A stretch of 50,319 bases of DNA from Candidatus Krumholzibacteriia bacterium. GTDB taxonomy: Bacteria > Krumholzibacteriota > Krumholzibacteriia > WVZY01. Shown one piece after another: positions 1,998-28,512 of the stretch (within the stretch, counting starts at the first letter, position 1; each line of letters begins with the position of its first letter). A program made the position numbers and the translations under genes. Location of the stretch: assembly GCA_036478295.1 (NCBI GenBank), contig JAZGDW010000297.1, forward strand, positions 1 to 50,319, in the 5' to 3' direction. The notes below the pieces were generated by a model, which did no database searches, was not told the origin of the DNA, and was given only the letters and a program-made list of their open reading frames with translations.

Positions 1998-4757
1998 CTA
2001 TCCTCGAATCAGTTGCAGCAACTCCGACAAGCCGTCCGCGCCGGCGCGGCCCACACTCACCCGCAGGATGCGGCGGCCGCGTTCGTTAAGCGCCTGCGCG
2101 TCTCCCATCGCCTGCGCTCGCATCAGATCACCGAACGTGTAGTCGGCCTCCGGGACCTCCATACCCTGTGGCACGTCGTCCACAACCTGCAGGAACAACC
2201 CCGTGTTCGGGCCGCCCTTGTGCAGCTGCCCCGTCGAGTGCAAAAAGCGGGGGCCGTACGCCAGGGTGGTCGCCAGGCGGGTGCGGTTGCGCAGCGCGGT
2301 TCGAAATTCACCCAATGCCGAAGTCGTCGCGCCGCCGGGCGGCAGGTAGGCCTGGATGGCAACGTAATCACCAGGGCGGGCCTCACCCAGCCATCGTTCG
2401 AGCGTAGCACCGGCGTCGCCCCCCTTATCCACATAAATCGTCTCGATGCCATCATCCCAACCCGAAGCGCCGCGGCTCTCTAGTTCCGCCATCTTGCGCC
2501 GGGCCAGGTCCTTGGCCAGCTGCACGTCCGGTTGATTGAACGGGTGAATACCGAGAACTGACCCCACGGCGGCCGTGGCCATTTCCCAACGAAAGAATTC
2601 CTGTCCGATGAGCATGGGGTCCTTGATCTGGACTCGTGCGACGGGATGCCCCGCGAATTCCAGCCGGCCGAGCGCGTCCTCGCACTCGGTGGATTCACCC
2701 TGCGTGGAGAGGTAGACGAAGAAACGGTCTTCTCCATAGACGTCATCCCGGCTCAGTGCCTCGCCCACCACCGGCACCACACCCTGGCCCCCCTTGCCTG
2801 TGCTCTCGGCAACCAGCTGCTCGATCCATGCGGGCAGCGCGCGGAGCGACTGTGACGTGACGATGGTCAGCTTGTCGCGGCCGGCGAGCGCCAGCTCACC
2901 GATCGCCGCACCGAGTGCCAGCGCGGGATTCTCTGTCACCGGCACCGCCGCGCCCGTGTTCTCCATCATGGCCCAGGCGCCGTCGAGGATGCGGTGCACG
3001 TCGAGCCCGGTTACCGCGGCAGGAACCAGACCGAAGACGCTCAGCGCCGAATAACGCCCGCCCACCTCCGTCGGCGCATGGAAGACGTGACGAAACCCCC
3101 GCTCGGCGGCCAGTGCTTCCAGTGGTGTGCCGGGGTCGGTCACGGCGACGAAGTGGCGGCCGGGCTCGCCGCTCGACGGAGCGATCTCATTCCAGAAATA
3201 TTTAAAAAAGGAAAGCGTCTCGGTGGTGGTACCGGATTTACTGGAGATGATGAACAGCGTTTTCGAGGGGTCGATCCGCTCGCGCACGGCAGCCACGGCA
3301 CCCGGGTGGGTGCTGTCCAGCACGATCAGCTCCGGGCGGTTTTTTTTGTGTCCGAAGGTCTCGTGGTACACCTCCGGCGCCAGGCTCGAGCCACCCATAC
3401 CGCACAGCACCGCGTGGGTAAAACCGTCCTTGCACACCGCCCTGGCGAAGTCCTGGATGGCATCGATTTGATCGTGCATGTCCCGGGGCAGGCTGAGCCA
3501 ACCCAGGCGGTCGGTCAGCTCCGGCGCCGGCGAAGATGACCACAGGGTGGGGTCTTTCTGCCACAGGCGGGCGGCGTAGTCGTCGTGCTGCCATTGTTCG
3601 AGACGCGCGCCGACGGCTTCCTCGCCGTCACCCAGATTCAGGTACTGGTGTTGGGATCGGCTTGAGAGAATCGAGCTCCTTTTTTTTTTGAGAGCTTCGA
3701 GAAGCTCTTCAAAAGATTTCGTAAAGGAGGCGACCCCGTCCACTTGTAACTTCTCCGTAATGGCGTCCAGGTCGATGCCGAGTTGTGCGAGCTTGTGGAT
3801 CTGCGCCTCCGCTTCTTCGACGTTCTGTGCGAGCGTCGGCTCGACCTTGCCGTGATCCCGAAAAGCGCTCAGCGTCGCGGGTGGCAGTGTGTTCACCGTG
3901 TCCGGGCCGATGAGTTCCTCGACGTAGAGCACATCCCTGTAATCGGGGTTCTTGGTCGATGTGCTCGCCCACAGCGGTCTCTGCACGCGGGCGCCCTTTG
4001 CTTTGAGCGCGGCGAACGCGTCGCCGTAAAAAATTTCTTCGAAGCGCTTGTACGCGAGCTTGGCGTTGGCGACGGCGATCTTGCCGAGAAGCGCTTTGGC
4101 CTCGGGCGAACCGTTCGCTTCGAGCGCCTTGTCCACCACGCCGTCGATACGACTGACAAAGAAGGATGCCACCGACGCGATCGTCTGCGGGTTCTTACAG
4201 CGCTCGATACCGCGGATGTACGCCTGTGCGATGTCTTCGTAATGCTTGAGAGAAAACATCAACGTGCAGTTGATGTTGATACCGTCGGCGATCAACGCTT
4301 CGAAAGCGGGCACGCCGGCTGGCGTCGCCGGCACCTTGATCATCACGTTGGGACGATCGACCGTCTGCCACAAACGTTTTGCTTCGGCGACGGTCTTTTC
4401 GGTGTCGTTCGCCAGCCGCGGGGATACCTCCAGGCTCACGTAACCATCCGCGCCCTGCGACTCCTCGTACAGCGGGCGCAAGACGTCGGTGGCCATCTGA
4501 ATGTCCTCGATGGCCAGCGTTTCATACAGCGTCTTGATGTCGACGTGCGGGTCACGGTCGAGGGTCTTGCGCAGGCTTTCGTCGTAGTCGACACTTCCCG
4601 CGATCGCCTTTTCGAAAATGGTCGGATTGCTGGTCATGCCGCGCAGCCCGTCTTCTTCGATCAGACGGTTCAGCTCACCGCCGGTCATTAGTGTGCGGCG
4701 AATGTAGTCGAGCCAGATCGACTGCGAGTGTTCGGCCAGTTTTCTCAAGGGGTTCAT
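1998..4757 (-). CDS. Bifunctional transaldolase / glucose-6-phosphate isomerase
   Basis: N-terminal half: SIWLD, TSNPTIF, NVMIKVPAT, ASFFVSRID, RPLWASTSTK (transaldolase). C-terminal half: GMGGSSL, SKSGTTTET, VGGRYSALS, HPFNQPDV (PGI). Confidence 0.95.
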   Translation of the reverse strand: MNPLRKLAEHSQSIWLDYIRRTLMTGGELNRLIEEDGLRGMTSNPTIFEKAIAGSVDYDESLRKTLDRDPHVDIKTLYETLAIEDIQMATDVLRPLYEESQGADGYVSLEVSPRLANDTEKTVAEAKRLWQTVDRPNVMIKVPATPAGVPAFEALIADGININCTLMFSLKHYEDIAQAYIRGIERCKNPQTIASVASFFVSRIDGVVDKALEANGSPEAKALLGKIAVANAKLAYKRFEEIFYGDAFAALKAKGARVQRPLWASTSTKNPDYRDVLYVEELIGPDTVNTLPPATLSAFRDHGKVEPTLAQNVEEAEAQIHKLAQLGIDLDAITEKLQVDGVASFTKSFEELLEALKKKRSSILSSRSQHQYLNLGDGEEAVGARLEQWQHDDYAARLWQKDPTLWSSSPAPELTDRLGWLSLPRDMHDQIDAIQDFARAVCKDGFTHAVLCGMGGSSLAPEVYHETFGHKKNRPELIVLDSTHPGAVAAVRERIDPSKTLFIISSKSGTTTETLSFFKYFWNEIAPSSGEPGRHFVAVTDPGTPLEALAAERGFRHVFHAPTEVGGRYSALSVFGLVPAAVTGLDVHRILDGAWAMMENTGAAVPVTENPALALGAAIGELALAGRDKLTIVTSQSLRALPAWIEQLVAESTGKGGQGVVPVVGEALSRDDVYGEDRFFVYLSTQGESTECEDALGRLEFAGHPVARVQIKDPMLIGQEFFRWEMATAAVGSVLGIHPFNQPDVQLAKDLARRKMAELESRGASGWDDGIETIYVDKGGDAGATLERWLGEARPGDYVAIQAYLPPGGATTSALGEFRTALRNRTRLATTLAYGPRFLHSTGQLHKGGPNTGLFLQVVDDVPQGMEVPEADYTFGDLMRAQAMGDAQALNERGRRILRVSVGRAGADGLSELLQLIRG

Positions 4758-10073: not shown

Positions 10074-10130
10074 CCTGGGCTACGGCGGGTGATAGCGTCG
10101 GCGCGACAGGATGGGCGTTCTCATGCTCGG

Positions 10131-10370
10131 CTAGCCCAGCCCCAGCAGCGCTTCGAGCTTCTTGCGATCGAAGCCGATCACCAGTTCGCCGTCAATGAGC
10201 GTTGCCGGCGTGGAATACACGCCCAACTGTTCAAGCTCTTTCAATGCCGACTCGTCCTCGGAGATGTTCCGATCCGTAAACTCGATCTCTTTCTCAGAAA
10301 GCCACGCTTTCTCCGCGGTGCAAAATTGTCAGCCGGGTTGCGAGTACACAATTACCTTGTGCTCACTCAT
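10131..10370 (-). CDS. Glutaredoxin/NrdH-like protein with in-frame UGA at the first Cys of the redox motif (UQFC); probable selenoprotein, 79 aa
   Basis: Reading through TGA (10329-10331) gives MSEHKVIVYSQPG-U-QFCTAEKAWLSEKEIEFTDRNISEDESALKELEQLGVYSTPATLIDGELVIGFDRKKLEALLGLG*, a complete Grx fold with the cis-Pro TP and IGFD motifs. Confidence 0.88.
10301..10321 (-). promoter_or_regulatory. Candidate bacterial SECIS hairpin
   Basis: Just 3' of the UGA: CAC(C)GC-GGAGAAA-GCGUG stem-loop whose loop starts with G about 15 nt after the UGA. Confidence 0.55.
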
Positions 10371-21124: not shown

Positions 21125-21763
21125 CTACGAAACACCGAGGTATGCGACGTACGCGCGGGTGAGCTCGGTCACGAACATTGCGTCCGTGATTGGGGTCGGA
21201 CTGGTCGTCATTTCCGGATACAGCACGCGCTCCTCGATTGCGCTCATCACCATGAGAGACCCGAGCGTGGCCGCGAGCTGTGGGTCGGCGTGACCGACAT
21301 GCCGCCGCTCCAGCAATACCGGATCGACGAGGAGTCCGCGCATGCTCGACCTTAGGGCCTCGCCAAACCGGGTACGGACCCGCGCGCGCTCGCGCACCCG
21401 CAGGGCCCGGATAAGACCGCTGCGCTTTCGGAAGAGTCCCACGTAGAACGTGATGGCCTGGTTCAATCGCTTCTGAATGTGTTCCGACGTGCCGACCGCC
21501 CCCGGTCCCGAGGCCGCCTCCTCCGCGCACAGCCCGTCCAACTGCTCGAGCAGCGCGTCCTTGTCGTCGAAGCGGGCGTAAAATGCACCCACCGATGACG
21601 TCGAGCGGCGGGCGATCTCGGCCACCGTCACGGCGTCGAAGGTCCGCTTCTCGAGAAGCTCGCTCGTCGCTTCCAGGATCCGGCGGTGGGTTTCGCGGCT
21701 GCGCGCCTGCATCGGCGGGTGAAACGGCTCACCCGTTGTGGCAAACCGTCCCTTTCGTGGCAT
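21125..21763 (-). CDS. TetR/AcrR family transcriptional regulator
   Basis: QARSRET..RILEA...TVAEIARRS..SVGAFYARFDDKDAL HTH. Confidence 0.93.
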   Translation of the reverse strand: MPRKGRFATTGEPFHPPMQARSRETHRRILEATSELLEKRTFDAVTVAEIARRSTSSVGAFYARFDDKDALLEQLDGLCAEEAASGPGAVGTSEHIQKRLNQAITFYVGLFRKRSGLIRALRVRERARVRTRFGEALRSSMRGLLVDPVLLERRHVGHADPQLAATLGSLMVMSAIEERVLYPEMTTSPTPITDAMFVTELTRAYVAYLGVS

Positions 21764-21776
21764 ACCGGCTCCTTTT

Positions 21777-21798
21777 TAGAACAAGAATTCTTGTTCTA
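21777..21798. promoter_or_regulatory. Perfect 22-bp palindrome, probable TetR operator
   Basis: TAGAACAAGAATTCTTGTTCTA lies 13 bp upstream of the tetR ATG and abuts TATAAT hexamers on both strands (21798-21805). Confidence 0.8.
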
Positions 21799-21830: not shown

Positions 21831-22042
21831 CTGGCAACCCTAATCGATTCCTCGCTACCCTGGCGCGCTGGCGGTAGACGCGGCGAGATAGAGGTTCTCG
21901 GGTGAGTGCCGGTAGGCACGCTGCCAAGCTCCGATTGGGGCTAGATTGGCGCGCGGGTGACTGTCTGAGCGAGATAGCGTCTATCCCGCGGCGTCCACCG
22001 GTACAGTCGAGCCAGGCGGTGCGGTAATCAGTCACGAACCAG
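21831..22042. ncRNA. Unannotated ~210-nt rod-like structured element (E1), candidate ncRNA or diverged MITE
   Basis: Long imperfect inverted repeat: 21872-21892 vs 21980-22000 gives 18/21 Watson-Crick pairs, and pairing extends outward via CCTGGC/GCCAGG to CTGG/CCAG; shares core motifs with 28277-28453. Confidence 0.6.
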
Positions 22043-22054
22043 AACCTTGATTCG

Positions 22055-22084
22055 CTTATAACGGCAAAATGAATTGGCTGTCAA
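22055..22084 (-). promoter_or_regulatory. Sigma70-type promoter pointing into E1 and tetR
   Basis: Minus strand TTGACA (22084-22079)-N18-TATAAG (22060-22055); predicted TSS about 22048. Confidence 0.6.
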
Positions 22085-22125
22085 GCAAAAGTCGCCGGAC
22101 ACCTAACTGACTGACATAAAGTTAA

Positions 22126-22962
22126 TTAGAAAAGGCGCGAGCCAGAGGAATGCAGCATGATCAGGCCGGCGAATCGCCCGGTCATTCCCTGGTCATGGCG
22201 GTAGGAGTAAAATAGGTCGGGATGACAGGCCGTGCACATTTCGGCCACCTCGATGTGGTCGGCGCCGAGCCCCGCGGCTAACAGGCGTGCCTCGTTCATC
22301 CCCCACAGGTCGAGATAGCAGGTTCCGTGCATGTCTTCCTGAATGAACCGGCTTGCCTCGCTTCTCCCGAATTCCTTGTGGAACGCCTCCAACACCTCCT
22401 GCCCCACCTCATAGTGGCCCTTGCCGATGGACGGGCTGATCCCGGCGAACAACTCCTGCGGGTCGCTTCCGAAGGCGTCCTGCATGCTCTCGACGGTGCG
22501 TTCCGCGATGCGGCCCAGCGTCCCCTTCCAGCCGGCGTGGGCGAGACCGATGGCGGCGTGCCTCGGGTCGTAGAGGGAAATCACGACGCAGTCCGCCACC
22601 AGCACCATGAGCGGTACCCCACGCGCGCGCGTGATGAGAGCGTCAGCGCCGTCGATGCCGCCGTCGTCCGAAACGGCACCTCGGCCGCGCTCGGATGCGC
22701 CCACCACCGTGACGGTCGTCCCGTGCACCTGGCCGGGCACGGTCAGGTCCTCGGGCTCGATGCCCAGGGTCTGGCTGAGGAGCGCGCGGTTTTCGAGCAC
22801 GGCACCGGCATCATCCCCGACGTGCAAACCGAGGTTCAACCCTTTGTACGGACCCGCACTGGTTCCGCCGGCCCGAGTGGTGACCACGTTGGTGACGTTA
22901 CGAAAAGGCTCGAAGCGATCGTACGAAAGAAACCGGATGCTTCCGATGGTGTGTTCTTGCAC
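22126..22962 (-). CDS. pgeF: Peptidoglycan editing factor PgeF / YfiH (FAMIN) family
   Basis: TTRAGG.S, LNLGLHVGD, QVHG, ADALIT, VADC, HAGWKG, PSI, CTAC..FYSYR; GTG start 22962. Confidence 0.9.
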   Translation of the reverse strand: MQEHTIGSIRFLSYDRFEPFRNVTNVVTTRAGGTSAGPYKGLNLGLHVGDDAGAVLENRALLSQTLGIEPEDLTVPGQVHGTTVTVVGASERGRGAVSDDGGIDGADALITRARGVPLMVLVADCVVISLYDPRHAAIGLAHAGWKGTLGRIAERTVESMQDAFGSDPQELFAGISPSIGKGHYEVGQEVLEAFHKEFGRSEASRFIQEDMHGTCYLDLWGMNEARLLAAGLGADHIEVAEMCTACHPDLFYSYRHDQGMTGRFAGLIMLHSSGSRLF

Positions 22963-23062
22963 GTCTTCCCCCCCCGGCGAGTGGGTTCCCATCGTAGCCC
23001 GTGGCGCGGGCAATTGTCAACCGGGCCCCAGGGTGCCGCCGGCGCAAGATCCGAAAAGCGTC

Positions 23063-24298
23063 CTAGAGCAGCAACTTCGTCGCCAGCCAATAGAGGATAA
23101 TGGTCATCACCGCGGTGACCGGCACGGTGGCGAGCCACGACGTAAATATGGAGCGTATGGTCTTCAGCTGCAGTGCGGCCAGCCCACGGGCCAACCCGAC
23201 TCCCATGACCGCACCGATCAGTGAATGGGTCGTCGAAATCGGCAGCCCGAGCTTGGAGCACACCAGCACCGTGGTGGCGGCGGCGAACTCGGCCGAAAAC
23301 CCCCGCGTAGGCGTCATGTGAGTGATCTTCTCGCCCACCGTTTCCATGACCCGCCGCCCGAACATCGCGAGGCCAGCCACGATGCCCGCTCCTCCCAGCA
23401 GCAGAATCCAGATCGGGACACCCACCTTCATACCGACTTCCCCGGTGGTTTGGACGGCGTAGACGGCTGCCAACGGGCCGACGGCGTTGGCGACGTCGTT
23501 GGCTCCGTGCGCAAAGGCCACGTAGGCGGCCGTGGTTATTTGCAGATACCTGAATATGCGCTCGGTGTAATCGAACTCCTCGGTCGGCTCGAGTTCCTTC
23601 TCACGCTTGACGGGCTTGGGCAACAGAAAGAACGCAAGGCCACCGGCTACAATCGCTACCAGCGCGGACACGCCGAGCGCCGTGGTCATCGGCCAGTCGA
23701 GATGGATGTTCTTCAGTCCCTTGAAGATCAGCGCCATACTGAGCATGAACGCAACTACCATAACGAGGTATGGCGCATACTTCGCTGCGGCCTCGTCCGG
23801 ACGTTCCGTGCCAAGTATTTTCTTCTTGATAAAAGCGAAGGTCAGGAATCCCAACAGGCCGCTGGCCAGGGGCGAGATCACCCAGCTCGCAACGATGCCG
23901 CCCATCTTTGCCCAGTTGACAGCGCCGCCAGCTATCAATCCAAAGCCGAAAATCGCGCCGACTATCGAGTGGGTGGTCGAGACCGGCTGACCGAAATAAC
24001 TGGCGAGGTGCAGCCAAAGCGCCGCCGACACCAGCGCGGCGAGCATGCCGTATACGAGAAGGTCCGGGTTGCCGGTGAAGGCCGACGGGTCGACGATGCC
24101 TTTTCGCACCGTGTCGGTTACGTGCCCACCGACAAGTACCGCACCGGCGAATTCGAAGATCCCGGCCAGAATCACAGCACTCCGGAACGTCAGCGCCTTC
24201 GACCCCACGGAGGTTCCCAGGGCATTGGCAACATCGTTCGCTCCGATGTTCCACGCCATGTACAGACCGATAACGAGCGCCACTATCAAGAGCACCAT
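23063..24298 (-). CDS. pit: PiT-family inorganic phosphate transporter
   Basis: Two GANDVAN signatures; PVSTTHS and PISTTHS. Confidence 0.95.
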   Translation of the reverse strand: MVLLIVALVIGLYMAWNIGANDVANALGTSVGSKALTFRSAVILAGIFEFAGAVLVGGHVTDTVRKGIVDPSAFTGNPDLLVYGMLAALVSAALWLHLASYFGQPVSTTHSIVGAIFGFGLIAGGAVNWAKMGGIVASWVISPLASGLLGFLTFAFIKKKILGTERPDEAAAKYAPYLVMVVAFMLSMALIFKGLKNIHLDWPMTTALGVSALVAIVAGGLAFFLLPKPVKREKELEPTEEFDYTERIFRYLQITTAAYVAFAHGANDVANAVGPLAAVYAVQTTGEVGMKVGVPIWILLLGGAGIVAGLAMFGRRVMETVGEKITHMTPTRGFSAEFAAATTVLVCSKLGLPISTTHSLIGAVMGVGLARGLAALQLKTIRSIFTSWLATVPVTAVMTIILYWLATKLLL

Positions 24299-24407
24299 AA
24301 AAGTCTGTCCTCCTCTTCAACAGCGGGTGTCACGGATACGCGAGCAGCGGCATGTGCGCCCCCAGGCTGCGGTTGCCGGCAAGTATGCTGCGCCAGGTCC
24401 GGCAATG

Positions 24408-25082
24408 TTATTTCTTGGCAATGATGAGTCTCAGGAACTTCGCGGTACTCTCGGCCTTGTTCGCGACTCTGCTCAACGTCAGGCAGTACTTGTCATAAAA
24501 CGCGAGCGTCGTGGGATCCAGTTTCTTCTCCAGACTGTAGAAGTGTTTCGCGAAGGCGCGCTGCAGTTTATCGGCCTTCCACTCCTCCTGGCCGATAGTA
24601 TCGATCGCTTTCAGGACCCGGTCTGCTTCCACCCCGGTGAAAGCGGCCTCGGCGAGTACCGACAGGTCTTCGGACAGGGCAAGCAACCGCTGGCTCACAT
24701 TGATTACCTGGTCCACGAACGCGGTAAACTCATCCTTCAGATCCGGATGCATACGCGTCTTGCGCAGCAGGACCACTACGGAAAAGTCCTCCGCCGCGTC
24801 GGCGATCGTGTCCTGCACGGCCAGATACTGGGTCAGCTCGTACCTGCCGACCGACAGCAATTGCATCCCGGTCAGCATGTCCCGAATCTCGTCTTTCATG
24901 ACGTCCGCTTCGTGCTCGGTCTTCGACATCTCATTATGGAGCGTGTCGAGTTTCTCGTGATCCTCCGCCAGAAGCGCTTCGGTAATGGGCCGAATCAACA
25001 ACACGCAGTCGTGGACTTTCTTCGTGTGCTCCACCAGCAGACGAAAAGGCGACGCGCCAAATAGCTTGCGTATGAAATCCAT
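24408..25082 (-). CDS. DUF47 / PhoU-like Pit accessory protein
   Basis: LFG.SPF..L.EH, EHEAD..K, QD.IAD..ED, EWKAD; directly upstream of pit. Confidence 0.9.
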   Translation of the reverse strand: MDFIRKLFGASPFRLLVEHTKKVHDCVLLIRPITEALLAEDHEKLDTLHNEMSKTEHEADVMKDEIRDMLTGMQLLSVGRYELTQYLAVQDTIADAAEDFSVVVLLRKTRMHPDLKDEFTAFVDQVINVSQRLLALSEDLSVLAEAAFTGVEADRVLKAIDTIGQEEWKADKLQRAFAKHFYSLEKKLDPTTLAFYDKYCLTLSRVANKAESTAKFLRLIIAKK

Positions 25083-25208
25083 GGCAATCCCCTTCTATGA
25101 TACTCGACCAGGTACGCGCACCCCCGCTTGCGCCAGCCAAGAAATTGACCCGCATTCTAATCGCATCCGGAGAAGAAATAAAGCGCAAATCGTTGGGCGT
25201 CGGCGGAG

Positions 25209-26024
25209 CTACTCGTTCAGGCTCCAGTCGTAGTGGGTGTGTTTGATTTTCCACCCCGCCGGGTCGCGGCGGATGACGGCGGCCACGCCATCGGGCAGGT
25301 AACGCGCGACGAAGAGCAGGATCTCTTCGTCGTTCGCACCGAAATCGCCGGCGTACCAGTCCAGGATCTTGGAGATGTGGGCGACCTTCTCTTTGGTGTC
25401 GAAATGGTTTTTTCCCGGCTCGGCGAAGAAGATCCGCGCCTGCTCGTCGAGTTGGCTGTTGAGCGTTGGCCCCTCGAACGCCTGGGCACTCAGGGCAGGG
25501 CAGGACTTCGATGCGCAAACCAGCGCGAAGTGTGCCCGTGGGTCCTGAAATCGGGGCCGGATGATCTCGTGCTCGATATCGTTGAGACTCAACTTCTCGC
25601 CGTTGATGACAATAAAATCCCGGTGCCAGATGGTCTTTTTGGTTACGGCACCGACGTAGCGACCGGCGAAGTGAAGGTCGTTGATGCTCTTTACCGGATA
25701 GTTTTCGCAGATAAGCTGCAGGGTGAACGCGTTGTAGGCATTGATCCAGAACGCCAGGCGCGTGTGGTCATCCGTGATCGCGGCGGGATCGGTCGCCTCG
25801 AGACGGGCCAGGTACGCCTCGAGGTGTCCGGAGCGGCACAGGGTGGGGTAGTCCACGCGCCCGTCACGGACGTGTGTGCTCAGGATACGGCTGAACGCGG
25901 CGTGCGCCTCGGCGGCGTCGGTGTCGATACCCGCCTCCGCGGGTTGGATCCGCGGCGTCTGGCCCGCGCATCCCACCGCGCACATTGATAACATCAAGGC
26001 GGCTGCAATCAGAATCGTTTTCAC
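25209..26024 (-). CDS. DUF547 domain lipoprotein
   Basis: Lipobox AVGC; GRVDY, LAFWINAYNA, LNDIEH.IIR, DPRAHFALVCASKSCP, YDWSLN; GTG start 26024 behind GGAG. Confidence 0.9.
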   Translation of the reverse strand: MKTILIAAALMLSMCAVGCAGQTPRIQPAEAGIDTDAAEAHAAFSRILSTHVRDGRVDYPTLCRSGHLEAYLARLEATDPAAITDDHTRLAFWINAYNAFTLQLICENYPVKSINDLHFAGRYVGAVTKKTIWHRDFIVINGEKLSLNDIEHEIIRPRFQDPRAHFALVCASKSCPALSAQAFEGPTLNSQLDEQARIFFAEPGKNHFDTKEKVAHISKILDWYAGDFGANDEEILLFVARYLPDGVAAVIRRDPAGWKIKHTHYDWSLNE

Positions 26025-26028
26025 AGGG

Positions 26029-27333
26029 TCACTCCATAGAACCGAGCCAGTCGCCAATGCGGTCGACCGCCTCGACCACCCGCCCGCAGTGCGTACGCAC
26101 AAAATCGTCGTCGAGCGCTTCGCCCTCGGGCACCGTCCCGGCCGCCTCGAGTGCGGCGGCGCCGTCGAAATCCACATAAGCCAGCCTGGCAGTCAGTTCG
26201 TCCGCCGGCCTGCTGAACGCGCTGCCCGGCAGGATGGCGACTCCCGTGTCGTCGAGCAGCTTTTCGCATATCTCGACGCTGGTATTGATTCCCTTCCGGC
26301 GCAGTTTGTCACGCAGAGGTGAGAAATCCGGAAACAGGTAGAACGCGCCCTCGGGCGGCAGGATATCCGCGCCTGTCTTTTCCAACGAGCGGGTGAGCAA
26401 GTTACCGAGCGCGGACAACACCCGGCGCGACCGCACGAGGTAGCGATCGATGTCGGCTCCCCCCTGGAACGCGCGGATCGCCGCGTACTGGATCGGCGCG
26501 CTCGTCGAGGTGAAGGTCTCGCTGGCCACCGCCGCCATGGCGTCGAGCAGCCATCTCAGTGATTTGGGAAAGACGAACAGTCCCAGCCGCCAGCCGCCGG
26601 CGCCGCACCATTTGCTCAATCCACCGCTGAATATGGTGCTTTCTGGATACAGGGGCACGATGGATTCGTGCTGTCCCGTGTGGTGGATCTTGCCGTAGAT
26701 CTCGTCCGAGAGGACGACCACGTGGTTCTGCCTCGCCACCTCGGCGATGTCGGCGAGCTGCCCGTGGGACAGGGTGCATCCCGTCGGGTTGGACGGGTAG
26801 TTGAGGACCAGGATGCGCGGCCGGCCGTGATCCTTGGCGCAAAATTCTTCGAGCTGCGCGGCGGTCAGTTGCCAGTTGCTCTCGATCGACGTGGGCAGAA
26901 CAAAGATGTTCCGACCGATAATCTGGGCCTGGGGCGCGTAGGACACCCAGGATGGGGAGCTGATAACGAGATCTCCGTAGTACGCGAGCTGCAGTAGAAA
27001 CATCAGCTCTTTCGACCCCGGGCCGATCAAGACCTCGTCGGCCGTACACTCGATGCCGAACGTCCGCCGGTGGTGTTCGGCGACGGCCTCCCGCAGTTCG
27101 TACAAACCCTTCACCGGCAGGTAGGCCTTCTGGTGGGCGTTCTCCCGCAATGCCTCCACCACAGACTCCGGTACGGGAAAGGGCGATTGGCCTAATCCCA
27201 GTTTGATGACGTCGCGTCCCCGGCGAATCAGCTCGTTGGAACGGTCGTTGATCGCCACGGTCGCCGACACACCGAGCCCGCGAACATTGAGGTTCAGATG
27301 AACTTCACCAAATGAATCGGGATGATTATGCAT
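26029..27333 (-). CDS. PLP-dependent class I/II aminotransferase
   Basis: GPGSK, PSWVSY, NYPSNPTG, SDEIY, GLSKW...GWRLG. Confidence 0.92.
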   Translation of the reverse strand: MHNHPDSFGEVHLNLNVRGLGVSATVAINDRSNELIRRGRDVIKLGLGQSPFPVPESVVEALRENAHQKAYLPVKGLYELREAVAEHHRRTFGIECTADEVLIGPGSKELMFLLQLAYYGDLVISSPSWVSYAPQAQIIGRNIFVLPTSIESNWQLTAAQLEEFCAKDHGRPRILVLNYPSNPTGCTLSHGQLADIAEVARQNHVVVLSDEIYGKIHHTGQHESIVPLYPESTIFSGGLSKWCGAGGWRLGLFVFPKSLRWLLDAMAAVASETFTSTSAPIQYAAIRAFQGGADIDRYLVRSRRVLSALGNLLTRSLEKTGADILPPEGAFYLFPDFSPLRDKLRRKGINTSVEICEKLLDDTGVAILPGSAFSRPADELTARLAYVDFDGAAALEAAGTVPEGEALDDDFVRTHCGRVVEAVDRIGDWLGSME

Positions 27334-27477
27334 GACACTTGCCGACTGGGGTCGTGCTCCTACCGGTTAGTGCATCGAACCAGCCGAATATTACACGATT
27401 ATTTTGCGAAGGTCGAGTCTCCTCTGCGCCGCACGAACGCCTTTCATAATCCCCAGCGGAGCCCTATAATGCCGGGG

Positions 27478-28254
27478 ATGGCGAAGACGCGTCGCATACT
27501 ATCCTGGAATGTCAACGGCCTCAGGGCCGTGCACAAGAAGGGGTTCGTGGACTGGCTGGCCGCGGAGCGCCCGGATGCGCTGTGCATGCAGGAAGTCCGC
27601 GCCGACCTCGATCAGCTGCCGCCGGACCTGAGGGAACCGGCAGGCTACCGGGCGTACTTCACAGCAGGTGAAAGGAAAGGCTACAGCGGCGTGGCCTTGT
27701 ACAGCAAAGAGACACCGGAGTCGGTAAGCCACGGCATCGGCATCGGGGAGTTCGACCGGGAAGGGCGGTTCGTGGTCGCCGATTACGGTGAGTTTCTCCT
27801 CTATAATATTTACTTCCCCAACGGATCGGCGTCTGCCGAGCGGCTCGACTACAAGCTGGCGTTCTATGACGTTTTTCTCGATCACGCCGTCGAGCTCAAA
27901 GCTACCGGCAGAAAAGTCATCGTCTGCGGAGACTTCAATACCGCACACAAGCAAATCGATCTCGCCCGGCCCGAGGCCAACGAAAACAACTCGGGGTTTC
28001 TGCCGCAGGAGCGCGACTGGATGGACCGCTTCATCGCGAGCGGCTTCGTCGATGCCTTCCGCATGTTTCACGAAGAACCCGGGCACTATACCTATTGGGA
28101 TTTCAAGACCCGCGCACGCCAGCGAAACGTCGGCTGGCGCATCGATTATTTCTTTGTGAGCGACAACCTGCGGGACCGGCTGGAAGACGCTTTCATCCTG
28201 GCCGATGTGCCCGGTTCGGACCACTGTCCCACCGGTATTACCATCGAAATCTGA
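27478..28254 (+). CDS. xth: Exodeoxyribonuclease III / AP endonuclease
   Basis: SWNVNG, QE, GYSGV, YFPNG, GDFNTAH, GWRIDY, SDHCP; TATAAT at 27465-27470, 7 nt before ATG 27478. Confidence 0.95.
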   Translation: MAKTRRILSWNVNGLRAVHKKGFVDWLAAERPDALCMQEVRADLDQLPPDLREPAGYRAYFTAGERKGYSGVALYSKETPESVSHGIGIGEFDREGRFVVADYGEFLLYNIYFPNGSASAERLDYKLAFYDVFLDHAVELKATGRKVIVCGDFNTAHKQIDLARPEANENNSGFLPQERDWMDRFIASGFVDAFRMFHEEPGHYTYWDFKTRARQRNVGWRIDYFFVSDNLRDRLEDAFILADVPGSDHCPTGITIEI

Positions 28255-28276
28255 CGCGCCGGGGAGCGATAAGCTC

Positions 28277-28453
28277 GGGATGCCATGACGGGACAAGTGT
28301 TCTCAAGCGAGTTCTTGAGCACCTTCAGCTAGTCATAATGCGCGAAATGCTGCGGAGCAGTGCGCAGGCGCGCAGCCAAGCGTCTACGGGTAAGAAAGCT
28401 CGTGCGCCGAGGACTGTCTGAGCGTGAGAACACTTGTCCCGTCATGGCATCCC
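28277..28453. repeat. 177-bp element (E2) with perfect 29-bp terminal inverted repeats; MITE-like or structured RNA
   Basis: GGGATGCCATGACGGGACAAGTGTTCTCA (28277-28305) and its exact reverse complement (28425-28453); no clear target-site duplication. Confidence 0.85.
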
Positions 28454-28512
28454 ACGGCGCCTTCCAGGGCGGCGTCCGGCTGGCACGTCTCTTGCCCCTC
28501 TCCCCCCTTGCC

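What the first reader, a model, noticed from the sequence alone, without database searches (positions are those of the whole stretch)
21831..28453. Two dispersed, homologous rod-like elements (E1 and E2) define an unannotated structured family with a kink-turn-like core
Seen: E1 (21831-22042) and E2 (28277-28453) lie about 6.2 kb apart in unrelated intergenic regions. Each is a long closing stem ending GTTCTC(G/A) and carries three collinear blocks: (G/A)G(T/C)GAGT at 21901 and 28306; GGC(A/G)CGC(T/A)GCCAAGC at 21915-21929 and 28367-28381 (13/15 identical); and an identical GACTGTCTGAGCG at 21959-21971 and 28412-28424, reached after 29 versus 30 nt. The stems also align (GGCGAGATAGAGGTTCTCG vs GACGGGACAAGTGTTCTCA), differing mainly by transitions while each keeps its own pairing, which looks like covariation. 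On the + strand the junction folds as a canonical stem (GUUCUUG/CGAGGAC in E2), a UGUCU bulge, tandem GA/AG and GC pairs, resembling a kink-turn with a 5-nt bulge. Inference: conserved unpaired nucleotides plus covarying stems fit a functional structured RNA or ssDNA (ncRNA, ribozyme-like, or a non-autonomous mobile element recognised by structure) better than an ordinary MITE. I do not recognise it as 6S, SRP, RNase P, tmRNA, tRNA or a known riboswitch.
Basis: partly seen in the sequence, partly recalled or inferred. Interest (0 to 1): 0.85.

Follow-up and report, generated by a model that had tools for sequence, protein, structure and literature searches.

The report
Widespread mobile hairpin repeat, conserved core
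The two elements are one intact and one decayed copy of a small mobile hairpin-forming repeat whose roughly 29-base internal-loop core recurs almost unchanged in many bacterial phyla and matches no catalogued RNA family, so it may be an undescribed structured nucleic-acid signal.

Summary
E2 (28277-28453) is a near-perfect 177-nt hairpin. E1 (21831-22042) is a diverged, partly decayed relative (family HMM E=4.6e-8; E1 vs E2 beats 997 of 1000 shuffles).

Both belong to a non-coding repeat family with about 20 loci in this genome. All 20 loci checked are intergenic. The element is missing from the orthologous site of a same-genus genome in 4 of 4 copies tested, so it is mobile.

All copies share a two-strand core: M1 GCGAGTTC..CGCAG and M2 CGAGGACTGTYTGAGC. 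It forms an asymmetric internal loop between two helices that vary freely in sequence but stay paired.

The same core occurs in 62 + >=120 loci, in record titles spanning about a dozen phylum-level groups. It comes in two circular permutations, usually as inverted (-,+) pairs that can enclose cargo genes.

Rfam 15 has no match. No HUH, IS110 or reverse-transcriptase partner was found in this genome.

My best reading is a structure-specific signal read in one folded single strand, DNA slightly favoured over RNA, and carried by selfish hairpin repeats. The kink-turn-like reading fits the sequence but is unproven. Function and mobilising machinery remain unknown.

The parts
28277..28453 (+). E2: intact long-type copy of the hairpin repeat (type A topology: outer stem P1 - M1 - inner part - M2 - outer stem P1')
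   Evidence: 32-nt arms 97% complementary. Fold z -9.9 as RNA and -8.7 as DNA. 80-85% identical to 7 other long copies in the genome.
28261..28460 (+). Segment present here but missing at the orthologous site of same-genus genome G001 and in related metagenome contigs (the insertion including E2)
   Evidence: G001:C31 has a 15-nt gap where the window has 211 nt. Contigs of runs X1-X4 stop at 28260/28261 or start at 28461. One X4 contig joins 28260 to 28461, but with only a 20-nt side, so this is weak.
28277..28306 (+). P1 5' arm (outer stem; sequence varies between copies, pairing kept)
   Evidence: Alignment of 8 long copies; folds.
28307..28314 (+). Core strand M1, first part (GCGAGTTC)
   Evidence: Conserved in all long and short copies and in other phyla.
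28315..28362 (+). 48-nt insert that defines the long variant; absent from short copies
   Evidence: Short copies join HMM positions 38 and 87 directly. A short-type contig in run X3 replaces 28314-28398 (table 5c).
28363..28367 (+). Core strand M1, second part (CGCAG)
28368..28407 (+). P2 helix (GCGCGC/GTGCGC) and its apical hairpin
28408..28423 (+). Core strand M2 (CGAGGACTGTCTGAGC)
   Evidence: The exact 15-mer occurs 17 times in this genome and in 26 of 208 genomes of the phylum; the reversed-pattern control gave 3 hits. It is found in many phyla.
28424..28453 (+). P1 3' arm
21831..22042 (+). E1: diverged, decayed short-type copy (weak rod)
   Evidence: Fold z -2.5. HMM match at 21880-21988, E=4.6e-8, with substitutions in both core strands. 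The interval is 258 nt here against 102 nt in G001.
21902..21915 (+). E1 M1-like strand (GTGAGTGCCGGTAG; mutated)
   Evidence: alignment.
21954..21970 (+). E1 M2-like strand (CGGGTGACTGTCTGAGC; GGAC helix strand mutated)
   Evidence: alignment.
10099..10164 (-). Remnant: 3' arm plus the end of M2 of a further copy, directly after the stop codon of a small minus-strand ORF
   Evidence: nhmmer E 0.028 and 0.27. blastn gives 94% over 32 nt to the C286 copy, E 6e-7. Sequence shown.

Best explanation
E2 is an intact copy and E1 a decayed copy of a multi-copy, non-coding, mobile hairpin repeat. Every copy is built around one two-strand core: M1 GCGAGUUC(..)CGCAG opposite M2 CGAGGACUGUYUGAGC. The core forms an asymmetric internal loop: a GUUC/GGAC helix, a 5-nt UGUYU bulge, tandem G.A pairs and two G-C pairs. 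It lies between two helices, P1 and P2, whose sequence is free as long as they pair. Either helix may be the closed one, which gives the two circular permutations. I think the core is a structure-specific recognition site that is read in one folded single strand, the strand that carries M1 and M2. Single-stranded DNA extruded during replication or transfer is somewhat more likely than a transcript. The surrounding rod only supplies stability. The module rides on selfish DNA: simple hairpins here, inverted-pair palindromic elements elsewhere, and once inside an IS. Shown here: family membership, mobility, the structure constraint, the cross-phylum core and the absence of three candidate partner enzymes. 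Inferred: that the acting form is a folded single strand, that it is DNA, and that a trans-acting factor reads the core. The factor and the transposition chemistry are unknown.
For: 1. Family size: about 20 loci in the genome, with 17 exact M2 15-mers.
2. Location: 20 of 20 loci are intergenic by a GC3-filtered ORF call.
3. Mobility: absent at the syntenic G001 site in 4 of 4 copies tested. Distribution in the phylum is patchy, 26 of 208 genomes: f1 4/12, f2 6/23, f5 15/43, f3 0/91.
4. Termini: the outer stems differ between copies yet stay complementary.
5. Structure constraint: on 117 type-B units, 86% of cells are paired against 31-41% when partners are slid. The covariation score is 0.246 against 0.02-0.09, and 0 of 500 shuffles reach it.
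6. Core pairs covary: C16:G1 becomes G:C in 9 units, G15:C2 becomes C:G in 1, and G.U occurs in 8.
7. Cross-phylum spread: the 21-nt M2 pattern gave 62 loci where about 4 are expected by chance, and 45 of them also carry M1.
8. One strand is preferred. In 16 copies of this genome the M1/M2 strand has 71 G.U pairs and 4 A.C mismatches, against 43 and 13 on the other strand, and it folds better in 13 of 16. In the other type-A loci G.U outnumbers A.C 74 to 19.
9. Features leaning towards DNA:
   - 89 of 178 P1 apex loops are C(GNA)G triloops and only 3 are GNRA tetraloops. GCGNAGC is the DNA mini-hairpin, with a Tm of 70-76 C, whereas the one RNA example quoted, r(GCGAAAGC), melts at 39 C. It is used in single-strand initiation signals and in N4 hairpin promoters (review PMC13037366, passages and section 4.2 read).
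   - Orientation is not fixed relative to neighbouring genes: about 9-10 sense, about 5 antisense.
   - No promoter or terminator consensus lies in E2.
   - 30 of 34 adjacent units are inverted (-,+) pairs, some enclosing McrBC, DUF4357, 8xMP or an IS4-like IS.
Against: No trans-acting partner was found. Y1/HUH (PF01797), IS110 (PF01548) and reverse transcriptase (PF00078) all gave 0 matches in this genome, which is 91% complete, and none tracks the motif across the 41 genomes searched (G000 plus 40 relatives). No target-site duplication or conserved terminus could be defined for the window's type. The strand bias is modest in the type-B set: G.U 115 against A.C 75. It would arise equally from G.U pairs in RNA, or from transcription-linked deamination. 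The GNA-triloop argument comes from type-B units, many of them from related Betaproteobacteria; the apical loops of this genome's own type-A copies are not GNA. Circular permutation and a core that stays fixed while the helices diverge completely are more typical of RNA motifs and ribozymes than of recombination sites. No transcript data could be obtained.
Confidence: 0.45

Rival explanations
1. It is an RNA-level module. The core would be a kink-turn-like or other protein-binding or processing motif that acts in transcripts, for example in 3' UTRs of genes leaving a cassette. The repeats are simply its carriers.
For: The sequence fits k-turn topology: a canonical GUUC/GGAC helix, a bulge on the M2 strand, then tandem G.A/A.G and G-C pairs. 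G.U pairs are tolerated on one strand only. The motif is circularly permuted. The core stays invariant while P1 and P2 diverge from AT-rich to GC-rich, which suggests a partner that does not co-evolve. In (-,+) pairs, any transcript leaving the centre carries the sense strand.
Against: The bulge is 5 nt, not 3. Orientation towards neighbouring genes is mixed in this genome. In 195 type-B units the gene on the 3' side is convergent in 84 cases and co-directional in 34, so read-through transcripts would mostly be antisense. Apex loops are GNA triloops, not GNRA or UNCG. No promoter or terminator consensus was found. There is no Rfam match and no RNA data.
Confidence: 0.28
2. It is a new class of small self-cleaving (or otherwise catalytic) RNA, carried on repeats in the way hammerhead or twister motifs are.
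For: The minimal unit is about 35-45 nt. It has two helices around highly conserved unpaired nucleotides and shows natural circular permutations. It is multi-copy and linked to mobile DNA. Tandem or nested arrays occur (L249, L227, L234).
Against: It rests entirely on resemblance. No cleavage site can be named and there are no transcript ends. The loops look DNA-type. No known ribozyme family matches.
Confidence: 0.1
3. It is an ordinary MITE: a deletion derivative of a DDE-type IS, moved by cut-and-paste through terminal inverted repeats. On this view the core is conserved only because of recent horizontal spread.
For: It is small, non-coding, intergenic and polymorphic in presence. In a Kofleriaceae MAG the module sits inside a 1.86-kb IS5/IS1182-like IS. 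In Niveibacterium the roughly 720-bp composite has similar termini in several copies.
Against: The termini of this genome's copies are not conserved. The conserved part is internal and asymmetric. The flanking helices have diverged fully between phyla while the core has not, which argues against recent spread. The Kofleriaceae IS carries a single module, away from its ends. The IS4-like IS in L114 has its own unrelated inverted repeats.
Confidence: 0.1
4. It is a REP/REPIN-type repeat spread by a RAYT (Y1 HUH transposase).
For: Hairpin repeats, inverted pairs and intergenic location.
Against: PF01797 was not found in this genome or in G001; only 2 of the 41 genomes searched (G000 plus 40 relatives) have it, and neither of those two carried the exact M2 15-mer. 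Copy number is tens, not hundreds. REP sequences are lineage-specific (recalled), whereas this core crosses phyla.
Confidence: 0.03

Closest known systems
ERIC/IRU-type intergenic imperfect palindromes of enterobacteria (recalled from the literature, not read here)
   Same: Imperfect palindromes of about 120-180 nt that are non-coding and intergenic. They have short and long forms that differ by an insert at a fixed internal point. No transposase is associated, and the stems are maintained by compensating changes.
   Different: ERIC is confined to a few related families. Here the core recurs in about a dozen phylum-level groups, is circularly permuted, and sits as an asymmetric internal loop rather than being spread over the whole palindrome.
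Integron attC sites (structure-specific single-stranded DNA recombination sites)
   Same: They are recognised as a folded single strand. Two short paired boxes are separated by unpaired or extrahelical bases. The apical part varies from 3 nt to long hairpins, and the stem sequence is free.
   Different: The attC R-box consensus is not present. There are no direct-repeat cassette arrays and no IntI nearby. Units come as inverted pairs, and the motif is also found permuted, which attC is not.
Kink-turn (k-turn) RNA motif
   Same: A canonical helix, a bulge on one strand, then tandem G.A/A.G pairs followed by Watson-Crick pairs, with the strand polarity of a k-turn.
   Different: The bulge is 5 nt (UGUYU) rather than 3. 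A second conserved loop (CGCA/GA) lies 4 bp away. No L7Ae-type partner is expected in most of these phyla (recalled). Geometry was not tested.
DNA mini-hairpins GCGNAGC in single-strand initiation signals and N4 hairpin promoters (PMC13037366)
   Same: Half of the type-B units close P1 with exactly GCGNAGC or CCGNAGG. Units lie on opposite strands as inverted pairs.
   Different: Those signals are single sites in phage or plasmid origins, not chromosomal repeats. The conserved M1/M2 loops have no counterpart in the passages read. This genome's own copies lack the GNA apex.
Small self-cleaving ribozymes (hammerhead, twister, hatchet, pistol)
   Same: Similar size, a conserved core between variable helices, natural circular permutation, and association with repeats and mobile DNA.
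   Different: No match to any of their Rfam models. There is no evidence of cleavage.

Membership tests
Any Rfam 15 family (including ribozymes, 6S, SRP, RNase P, tmRNA, riboswitches) | Covariance-model score at or above the gathering threshold | tested here: not met
   0 hits over the whole window. With permissive E-value searches of E2, a type-B unit and a Gallionellaceae unit, only generic hairpin or miRNA-like matches appeared, all far below threshold.
Kink-turn | Tandem sheared G.A/A.G pairs next to the bulge, flanked by a canonical helix | tested here: inconclusive
   GA on both strands, with a GUUC/GGAC helix, is present in E2 and in all 117 aligned type-B units. Those units were selected with at most 1 mismatch per core strand. 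Pair geometry cannot be tested with these tools. Two units with M2 G5>C plus M1 C8>G hint at a different register.
Kink-turn | Three-nucleotide bulge | tested here: not met
   The bulge is 5 nt (UGUYU) in E2 and in all units listed.
Kink-turn | Sharp kink on Mg2+ or L7Ae-family binding | not testable with these tools
   Needs FRET, gel or crystallographic assays.
MITE (TIR-type, IS-derived) | Terminal inverted repeats conserved between copies | tested here: not met
   The outer 20-30 bp differ between the 8 long copies while staying self-complementary.
MITE (TIR-type, IS-derived) | Target-site duplication | tested here: inconclusive
   The four filled and empty site pairs are 71-83% identical in their flanks and do not align cleanly at the junctions. 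The contig-based boundaries 28260/28461 show no evident duplication.
MITE (TIR-type, IS-derived) | Autonomous IS with the same ends in the genome | tested here: not met
   None of the roughly 20 loci adjoins a transposase. The Kofleriaceae IS carries the module internally.
MITE (TIR-type, IS-derived) | Small, non-coding, multi-copy, insertion polymorphism | tested here: met
REP/REPIN with RAYT | Y1 HUH transposase (PF01797) in the genome | tested here: not met
   0 matches in G000 (91% complete) and in G001; 2 of the 41 genomes searched (G000 plus 40 relatives) have it.
Integron attC | Conserved R-box triplets and cassette arrays with IntI | tested here: not met
   The core strands do not fit the R-box consensus (the consensus is recalled; compared by eye). 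Adjacent units are inverted in 30 of 34 cases, not direct. IntI itself was not searched for.
DNA mini-hairpin (GCGNAGC) | GNA triloop closed by C:G on two G-C pairs | tested here: met
   Met in 89 of 178 predicted P1 apex loops of type-B units. Not met in E2 or E1 themselves.

The most novel reading that the evidence does not exclude
The M1/M2 internal loop is an undescribed functional nucleic-acid module of very wide distribution. One possibility is a new small ribozyme or protein-binding RNA fold. The other is a new kind of structure-specific single-stranded-DNA site, comparable to attC or to single-strand initiation signals, that marks the ends of cargo-carrying palindromic elements, including ones that hold defence genes, and is read by a conserved host factor rather than by an element-encoded transposase.
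Probability: 0.25. Interest if true: 0.9.

Novelty: new variant of a known kind. Interest (0 to 1): 0.7.

Why it matters
Small palindromic repeats are usually lineage-specific and are explained by a cognate transposase. Here a core of about 29 nt is kept almost letter for letter from Patescibacteria to Myxococcota, Actinomycetota and Bacillota, while everything around it has diverged. It tolerates circular permutation and appears in at least three kinds of carrier. That pattern points to a constraint set by chemistry or by a universal host machine. If that is correct, it is a new handle on one of three questions: how hairpin repeats move without their own enzyme, a new structure-specific DNA signal, or a new RNA motif. 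The minimal unit of about 40 nt is small enough to test directly at the bench.

Tried and rejected
- **Rfam.** Nothing at gathering threshold or at permissive E-values on four stretches.
- **First 16-nt pattern scan.** I first took its hits for chance, because a type-A HMM matched only 7 stretches in 6 of the 120 loci. Many later proved to be real type-B units.
- **5S rRNA mimicry.** I suspected this from recall. The genome's own 5S gene aligns to five element versions no better than shuffles do. Rejected.
- **Partner enzymes.** PF01797, PF01548 and PF00078 are not found in G000 and do not correlate with the motif. Other families (IS91, TnpB, tyrosine and serine recombinases, primases) were not tested.
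- **Promoter or terminator in E2.** None by the consensus scan. The TTGAGC..TATAAT-like words in the long insert have a 13-nt spacer, judged by eye.
- **Phage and plasmid links.** 0 hits in viral contigs. 2 weak plasmid hits with no annotation.
- **RSF1010.** Its record, wanted for an ssiA comparison, is not in the collection, so that comparison was not made.
- **Expression.** No RNA holder was listed.
- **Literature.** Exact-word searches for six core words and six arm words found only unrelated primer matches or nothing. Three descriptive searches found no description of this element. Subscription papers and supplements were not searched, so it may still be in print.
- **Alternative anti-M2 pairing in the long insert (GACAGTC).** Present in only some copies, so not pursued.
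- **Termini and target duplication of the Niveibacterium composite.** Termini are similar, but no duplication was seen.

Full report
**1. The observation.**

E2 (28277-28453) is a 177-nt hairpin with 32-nt arms that are 97% complementary. It folds far better than shuffles, both as RNA (-99.7 kcal/mol, z -9.9) and as DNA (-57.1, z -8.7).

E1 (21831-22042) is a poor rod: z -2.5, and 2 of 200 shuffles fold as well.

The similarity between the two is not chance:
- The local alignment score is 30 against 17.0 +/- 2.4 for 1000 dinucleotide shuffles, and 3 of 1000 reach it. The reverse strand scores 16.
- A profile of six short-type copies finds E1 at 21880-21988 with E=4.6e-8 in the whole genome.

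In that alignment E1 has substitutions in both core strands and has lost the GAGAAC part of its 3' arm. It is therefore a decayed copy, not a second intact example.

**2. A repeat family in this genome.**

The window is contig C220 of a 3.52-Mb, 316-contig assembly. BLAST and nhmmer find the following:
- Nine long copies, E2 among them.
- Six short copies that lack E2 positions 39-86.
- A subfamily with a different P1 (C30, C316; the long copy C253 also carries it).
- One variant, and several half or nested copies, some at contig ends.
- A remnant in the window itself at 10099-10164 (minus strand).

The exact M2 15-mer occurs 17 times.

By a GC3-filtered ORF call, 20 of 20 loci are intergenic. 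Orientation towards neighbouring genes is mixed: about 9-10 sense, about 5 antisense, and the rest unclear. My caller misses small genes.

**3. Anatomy.**

Aligned copies share two sequences:
- 5' ..GTTCTCAG-GCGAGTTC-(insert in long forms)-CGCAG-GCGCGC..
- ..GCGCGC-CGAGGACTGTCTGAGC-ATGAGAAC.. 3'

The outer 20-30 bp differ from copy to copy, yet each copy's arms remain complementary.

The core is therefore two strands, M1 and M2, facing each other between an outer helix P1 and an inner helix P2. Read as pairs, it consists of:
- the closing pair C1:G13;
- a loop of CGCA opposite GA;
- a helix GUUC/GGAC;
- a 5-nt bulge UGUYU;
- tandem G.A/A.G pairs;
- two G-C pairs, followed by P1.

**4. Mobility.**

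A same-genus genome (G001) is syntenic around E2. It has 15 nt where the window has 211.

Three further copies (C279, C126, C81) also lack a counterpart at the G001 orthologous site. In one of these cases G001 holds a half remnant of another subfamily. That makes 4 of 4 tested.

G001's own copies lie elsewhere in its genome.

Contigs of four metagenome runs stop at 28260/28261 or begin at 28461. One contig joins those two points, but with only 20 nt on one side, so it is weak evidence.

The E1 interval is 258 nt here and 102 nt in G001, but the two do not align cleanly.

Within the phylum, 26 of 208 genomes carry the exact M2 15-mer, and the distribution is patchy by family: f1 4/12, f2 6/23, f5 15/43, f3 0/91. 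The reversed-pattern control gave 3 hits in all.

**5. The core is not confined to this lineage.**

A 21-nt M2 pattern, with about 4 chance hits expected in 596 Gb, found 62 loci. Of these, 45 also carry M1 within range. The rest are half copies, copies cut by locus ends, or evident chance hits inside ORFs.

Record titles include the following groups:
- Gallionellaceae, Sulfuricella, Dechloromonas, Niveibacterium, Pseudohongiella;
- Kofleriaceae, Polyangiales, Bdellovibrionales, Arcobacteraceae, Spirochaetota;
- Actinomycetota, Coriobacteriales, Lachnospiraceae and Clostridia, Gastranaerophilales;
- Nitrospiraceae, Omnitrophota, Krumholzibacteriia, Eisenbacteria;
- several Patescibacteria.

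P1 and P2 are AT-rich in AT-rich genomes and GC-rich in GC-rich ones, while M1 and M2 stay the same.

There are two topologies. In type A, as in the window, P1 is open and P2 is closed. In type B, P2 is open and P1 is closed, sometimes by only two G-C pairs and a 3-nt loop.

Copy number in five carriers is 3-27, against 0-1 for the control.

**6. Structure statistics.**

On 117 distinct type-B units, chosen with a P1 hairpin of at most 13 nt and at most 1 mismatch per core strand, the proposed pairs are formed in 86% of cells. When partners are slid by 1-3 columns the figure is 31-41%. The covariation score is 0.246 against 0.02-0.09, and 0 of 500 shuffles reach it.

Double changes per pair were as follows:
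- The three P2 pairs next to the core: 12, 26 and 33 sequences.
- The first P1 pair: 37 sequences.
- The outer core G-C pair: 9 sequences.

Among the 195 distinct type-B units, rare core variants fit the pairing:
- C16:G1 becomes G:C in 9.
- G15:C2 becomes C:G in 1.
- G.U occurs in 8.
- M2 G5>C together with M1 C8>G occurs in two units. This suggests a shifted register for the 4-bp helix.

Because the units were picked by sequence, the invariance of the core in this alignment is by construction. The independent evidence is that M1 turned up whenever only M2 was searched for.

**7. Which strand, and RNA or DNA?**

The strand bearing M1 and M2 is favoured. In 16 copies of this genome it has 71 G.U pairs and 4 A.C single mismatches, against 43 and 13 on the other strand. 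It also folds better in 13 of 16.

A crude gapless count gave 74 G.U against 19 A.C in type-A loci. In type-B loci it gave 115 against 75.

This bias fits either RNA or single-stranded DNA, since G.T is tolerated as well.

Several features lean towards DNA:
- **Apex loops.** Of 178 predicted P1 apex loops, 89 are C(GNA)G triloops and only 3 are GNRA tetraloops. GCGNAGC is the 'mini-hairpin DNA' motif. Its Tm is 70-76 C, only GNA loops form it, and the RNA counterpart is far less stable. It occurs in the phage G4 origin, in RSF1010 ssiA and in N4 hairpin promoters (PMC13037366; abstract, matching passages and section 4.2 read).
- **Orientation to genes.** It is not fixed here. In the type-B set the gene on the 3' side is convergent in 84 cases and co-directional in 34.
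- **Pairing of units.** Adjacent type-B units are inverted (-,+) pairs in 30 of 34 cases. Spacings are 190-540 bp in 20 pairs and 0.9-7.4 kb in 10.

Against this, the GNA loops are not present in this genome's own copies, and many type-B units come from related Betaproteobacteria.

**8. Carriers.**

The module rides on at least three kinds of carrier.
- **Simple hairpins.** This genome, and Patescibacteria.
- **Arms of palindromic composites.** They measure about 720 bp in Niveibacterium, with about 13 copies. Each arm also has CGAG-N3-CGCAG sub-repeats that resemble M1.
- **An IS.** In a Kofleriaceae MAG one module lies upstream of, and antisense to, the transposase of a 1.86-kb IS5/IS1182-like IS (PF01609 + DUF772) that is present in several near-identical copies.

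Larger composites hold unrelated cargo at the centre:
- an IS4-like IS with its own inverted repeats;
- McrBC-like genes, DUF4357, an 8xMP membrane protein and hypothetical ORFs.

**9. What moves it?**

This is unknown. Three families known for hairpin- or structure-linked mobility gave 0 matches in this genome: Y1/HUH, IS110 and reverse transcriptase. None tracks the motif across the 41 genomes searched (G000 plus 40 relatives). The genome is 91% complete, and IS copies are often left unassembled.

No conserved terminus or target duplication could be defined for the window's type.

**10. Comparison and verdict.**

The family resembles ERIC-type palindromes in size, in having long and short forms, and in how its stems are maintained. 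It resembles attC sites in its logic: paired boxes, extrahelical bases and a variable apex. It resembles a k-turn in the layout of its main loop.

It fails defining features of each candidate family (see the membership table):
- TIR-type MITE: the termini are not conserved.
- REP/RAYT: there is no Y1 transposase.
- attC: there are no R boxes or direct arrays.
- k-turn: the bulge is 5 nt.
- Every Rfam family: no match.

I file it as a new variant of the hairpin-repeat kind. Its conserved, permutable internal-loop core is unusual enough to deserve a bench test.

My estimates are as follows:
- About 0.9 that the element is a mobile, structure-constrained repeat family.
- About 0.45 that the core is read in folded single-stranded DNA.
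- About 0.28 that it acts as an RNA protein-binding or processing motif, plus 0.10 for a ribozyme.
- About 0.10 that it is an ordinary MITE.

Noticed in passing
window 21777-21798: A perfect 22-bp palindrome, TAGAACAAGAATTCTTGTTCTA, is followed by TATTATAATG. Its outer arms and the downstream TATTATAAT stretch are conserved in the same-genus genome; its central bases differ. It lies between E1 and the start of the minus-strand ORF 21125-21763. It looks like an operator overlapping a promoter.
   Followed up: partly
G000 contigs C75:2560-2702, C112:5402-5505, C76:4-49, C77, C241 and about 30 other contigs: A second, more abundant repeat family with a unit of about 46 nt (GTTGGGTTGGTGACGGAGCCGTTGCGGGAACGAGCGAGGATCACCC). 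It is often in tandem with a period of about 47 nt and gave 54 BLAST hits. In C75, C76 and C112 it is nested inside or next to half copies of the hairpin element, and it sits at contig ends. None was found in the window.
   Followed up: partly
L265:1972-3833 (Kofleriaceae MAG) and 8 sister loci: A 1.86-kb IS5/IS1182-like IS (DDE_Tnp_1 + DUF772) in several copies over 99% identical. It carries one type-A module between its end and the transposase start, on the opposite strand.
   Followed up: partly
L151:1797-5404, L302:5847-7080, L136:69-1390, L314:1624-2794, L114:1814-3566: Inverted (-,+) pairs of type-B units enclose unrelated cargo: an AAA_5 ATPase with an McrBC-like gene, a DUF4357 protein, an 8xMP membrane protein, a hypothetical protein, and an IS4-like IS. 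The centre of these palindromic elements seems to be a permissive or preferred landing site.
   Followed up: partly
L383 (G001:C61, about 4549-4671): At the site orthologous to the G000 C81:20301-20425 copy, the same-genus genome holds only a half element (5' arm plus M1 of the other subfamily). The same intergenic spot has therefore been occupied more than once, or the element was replaced.
   Followed up: no
L002 about 1712-1801 (G000:C126) and 9 places in G001: A further short repeat of about 63-90 nt, next to the C126 copy. It is 79-88% identical to 9 loci of the same-genus genome.
   Followed up: no
L212, L214, L232, L241 (MAG titled Patescibacteria group bacterium): Four near-identical GC-rich type-A copies with shared AT-rich flanks. 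They closely resemble copies in MAGs titled Krumholzibacteriia. This could reflect recent transfer or a binning artefact.
   Followed up: no
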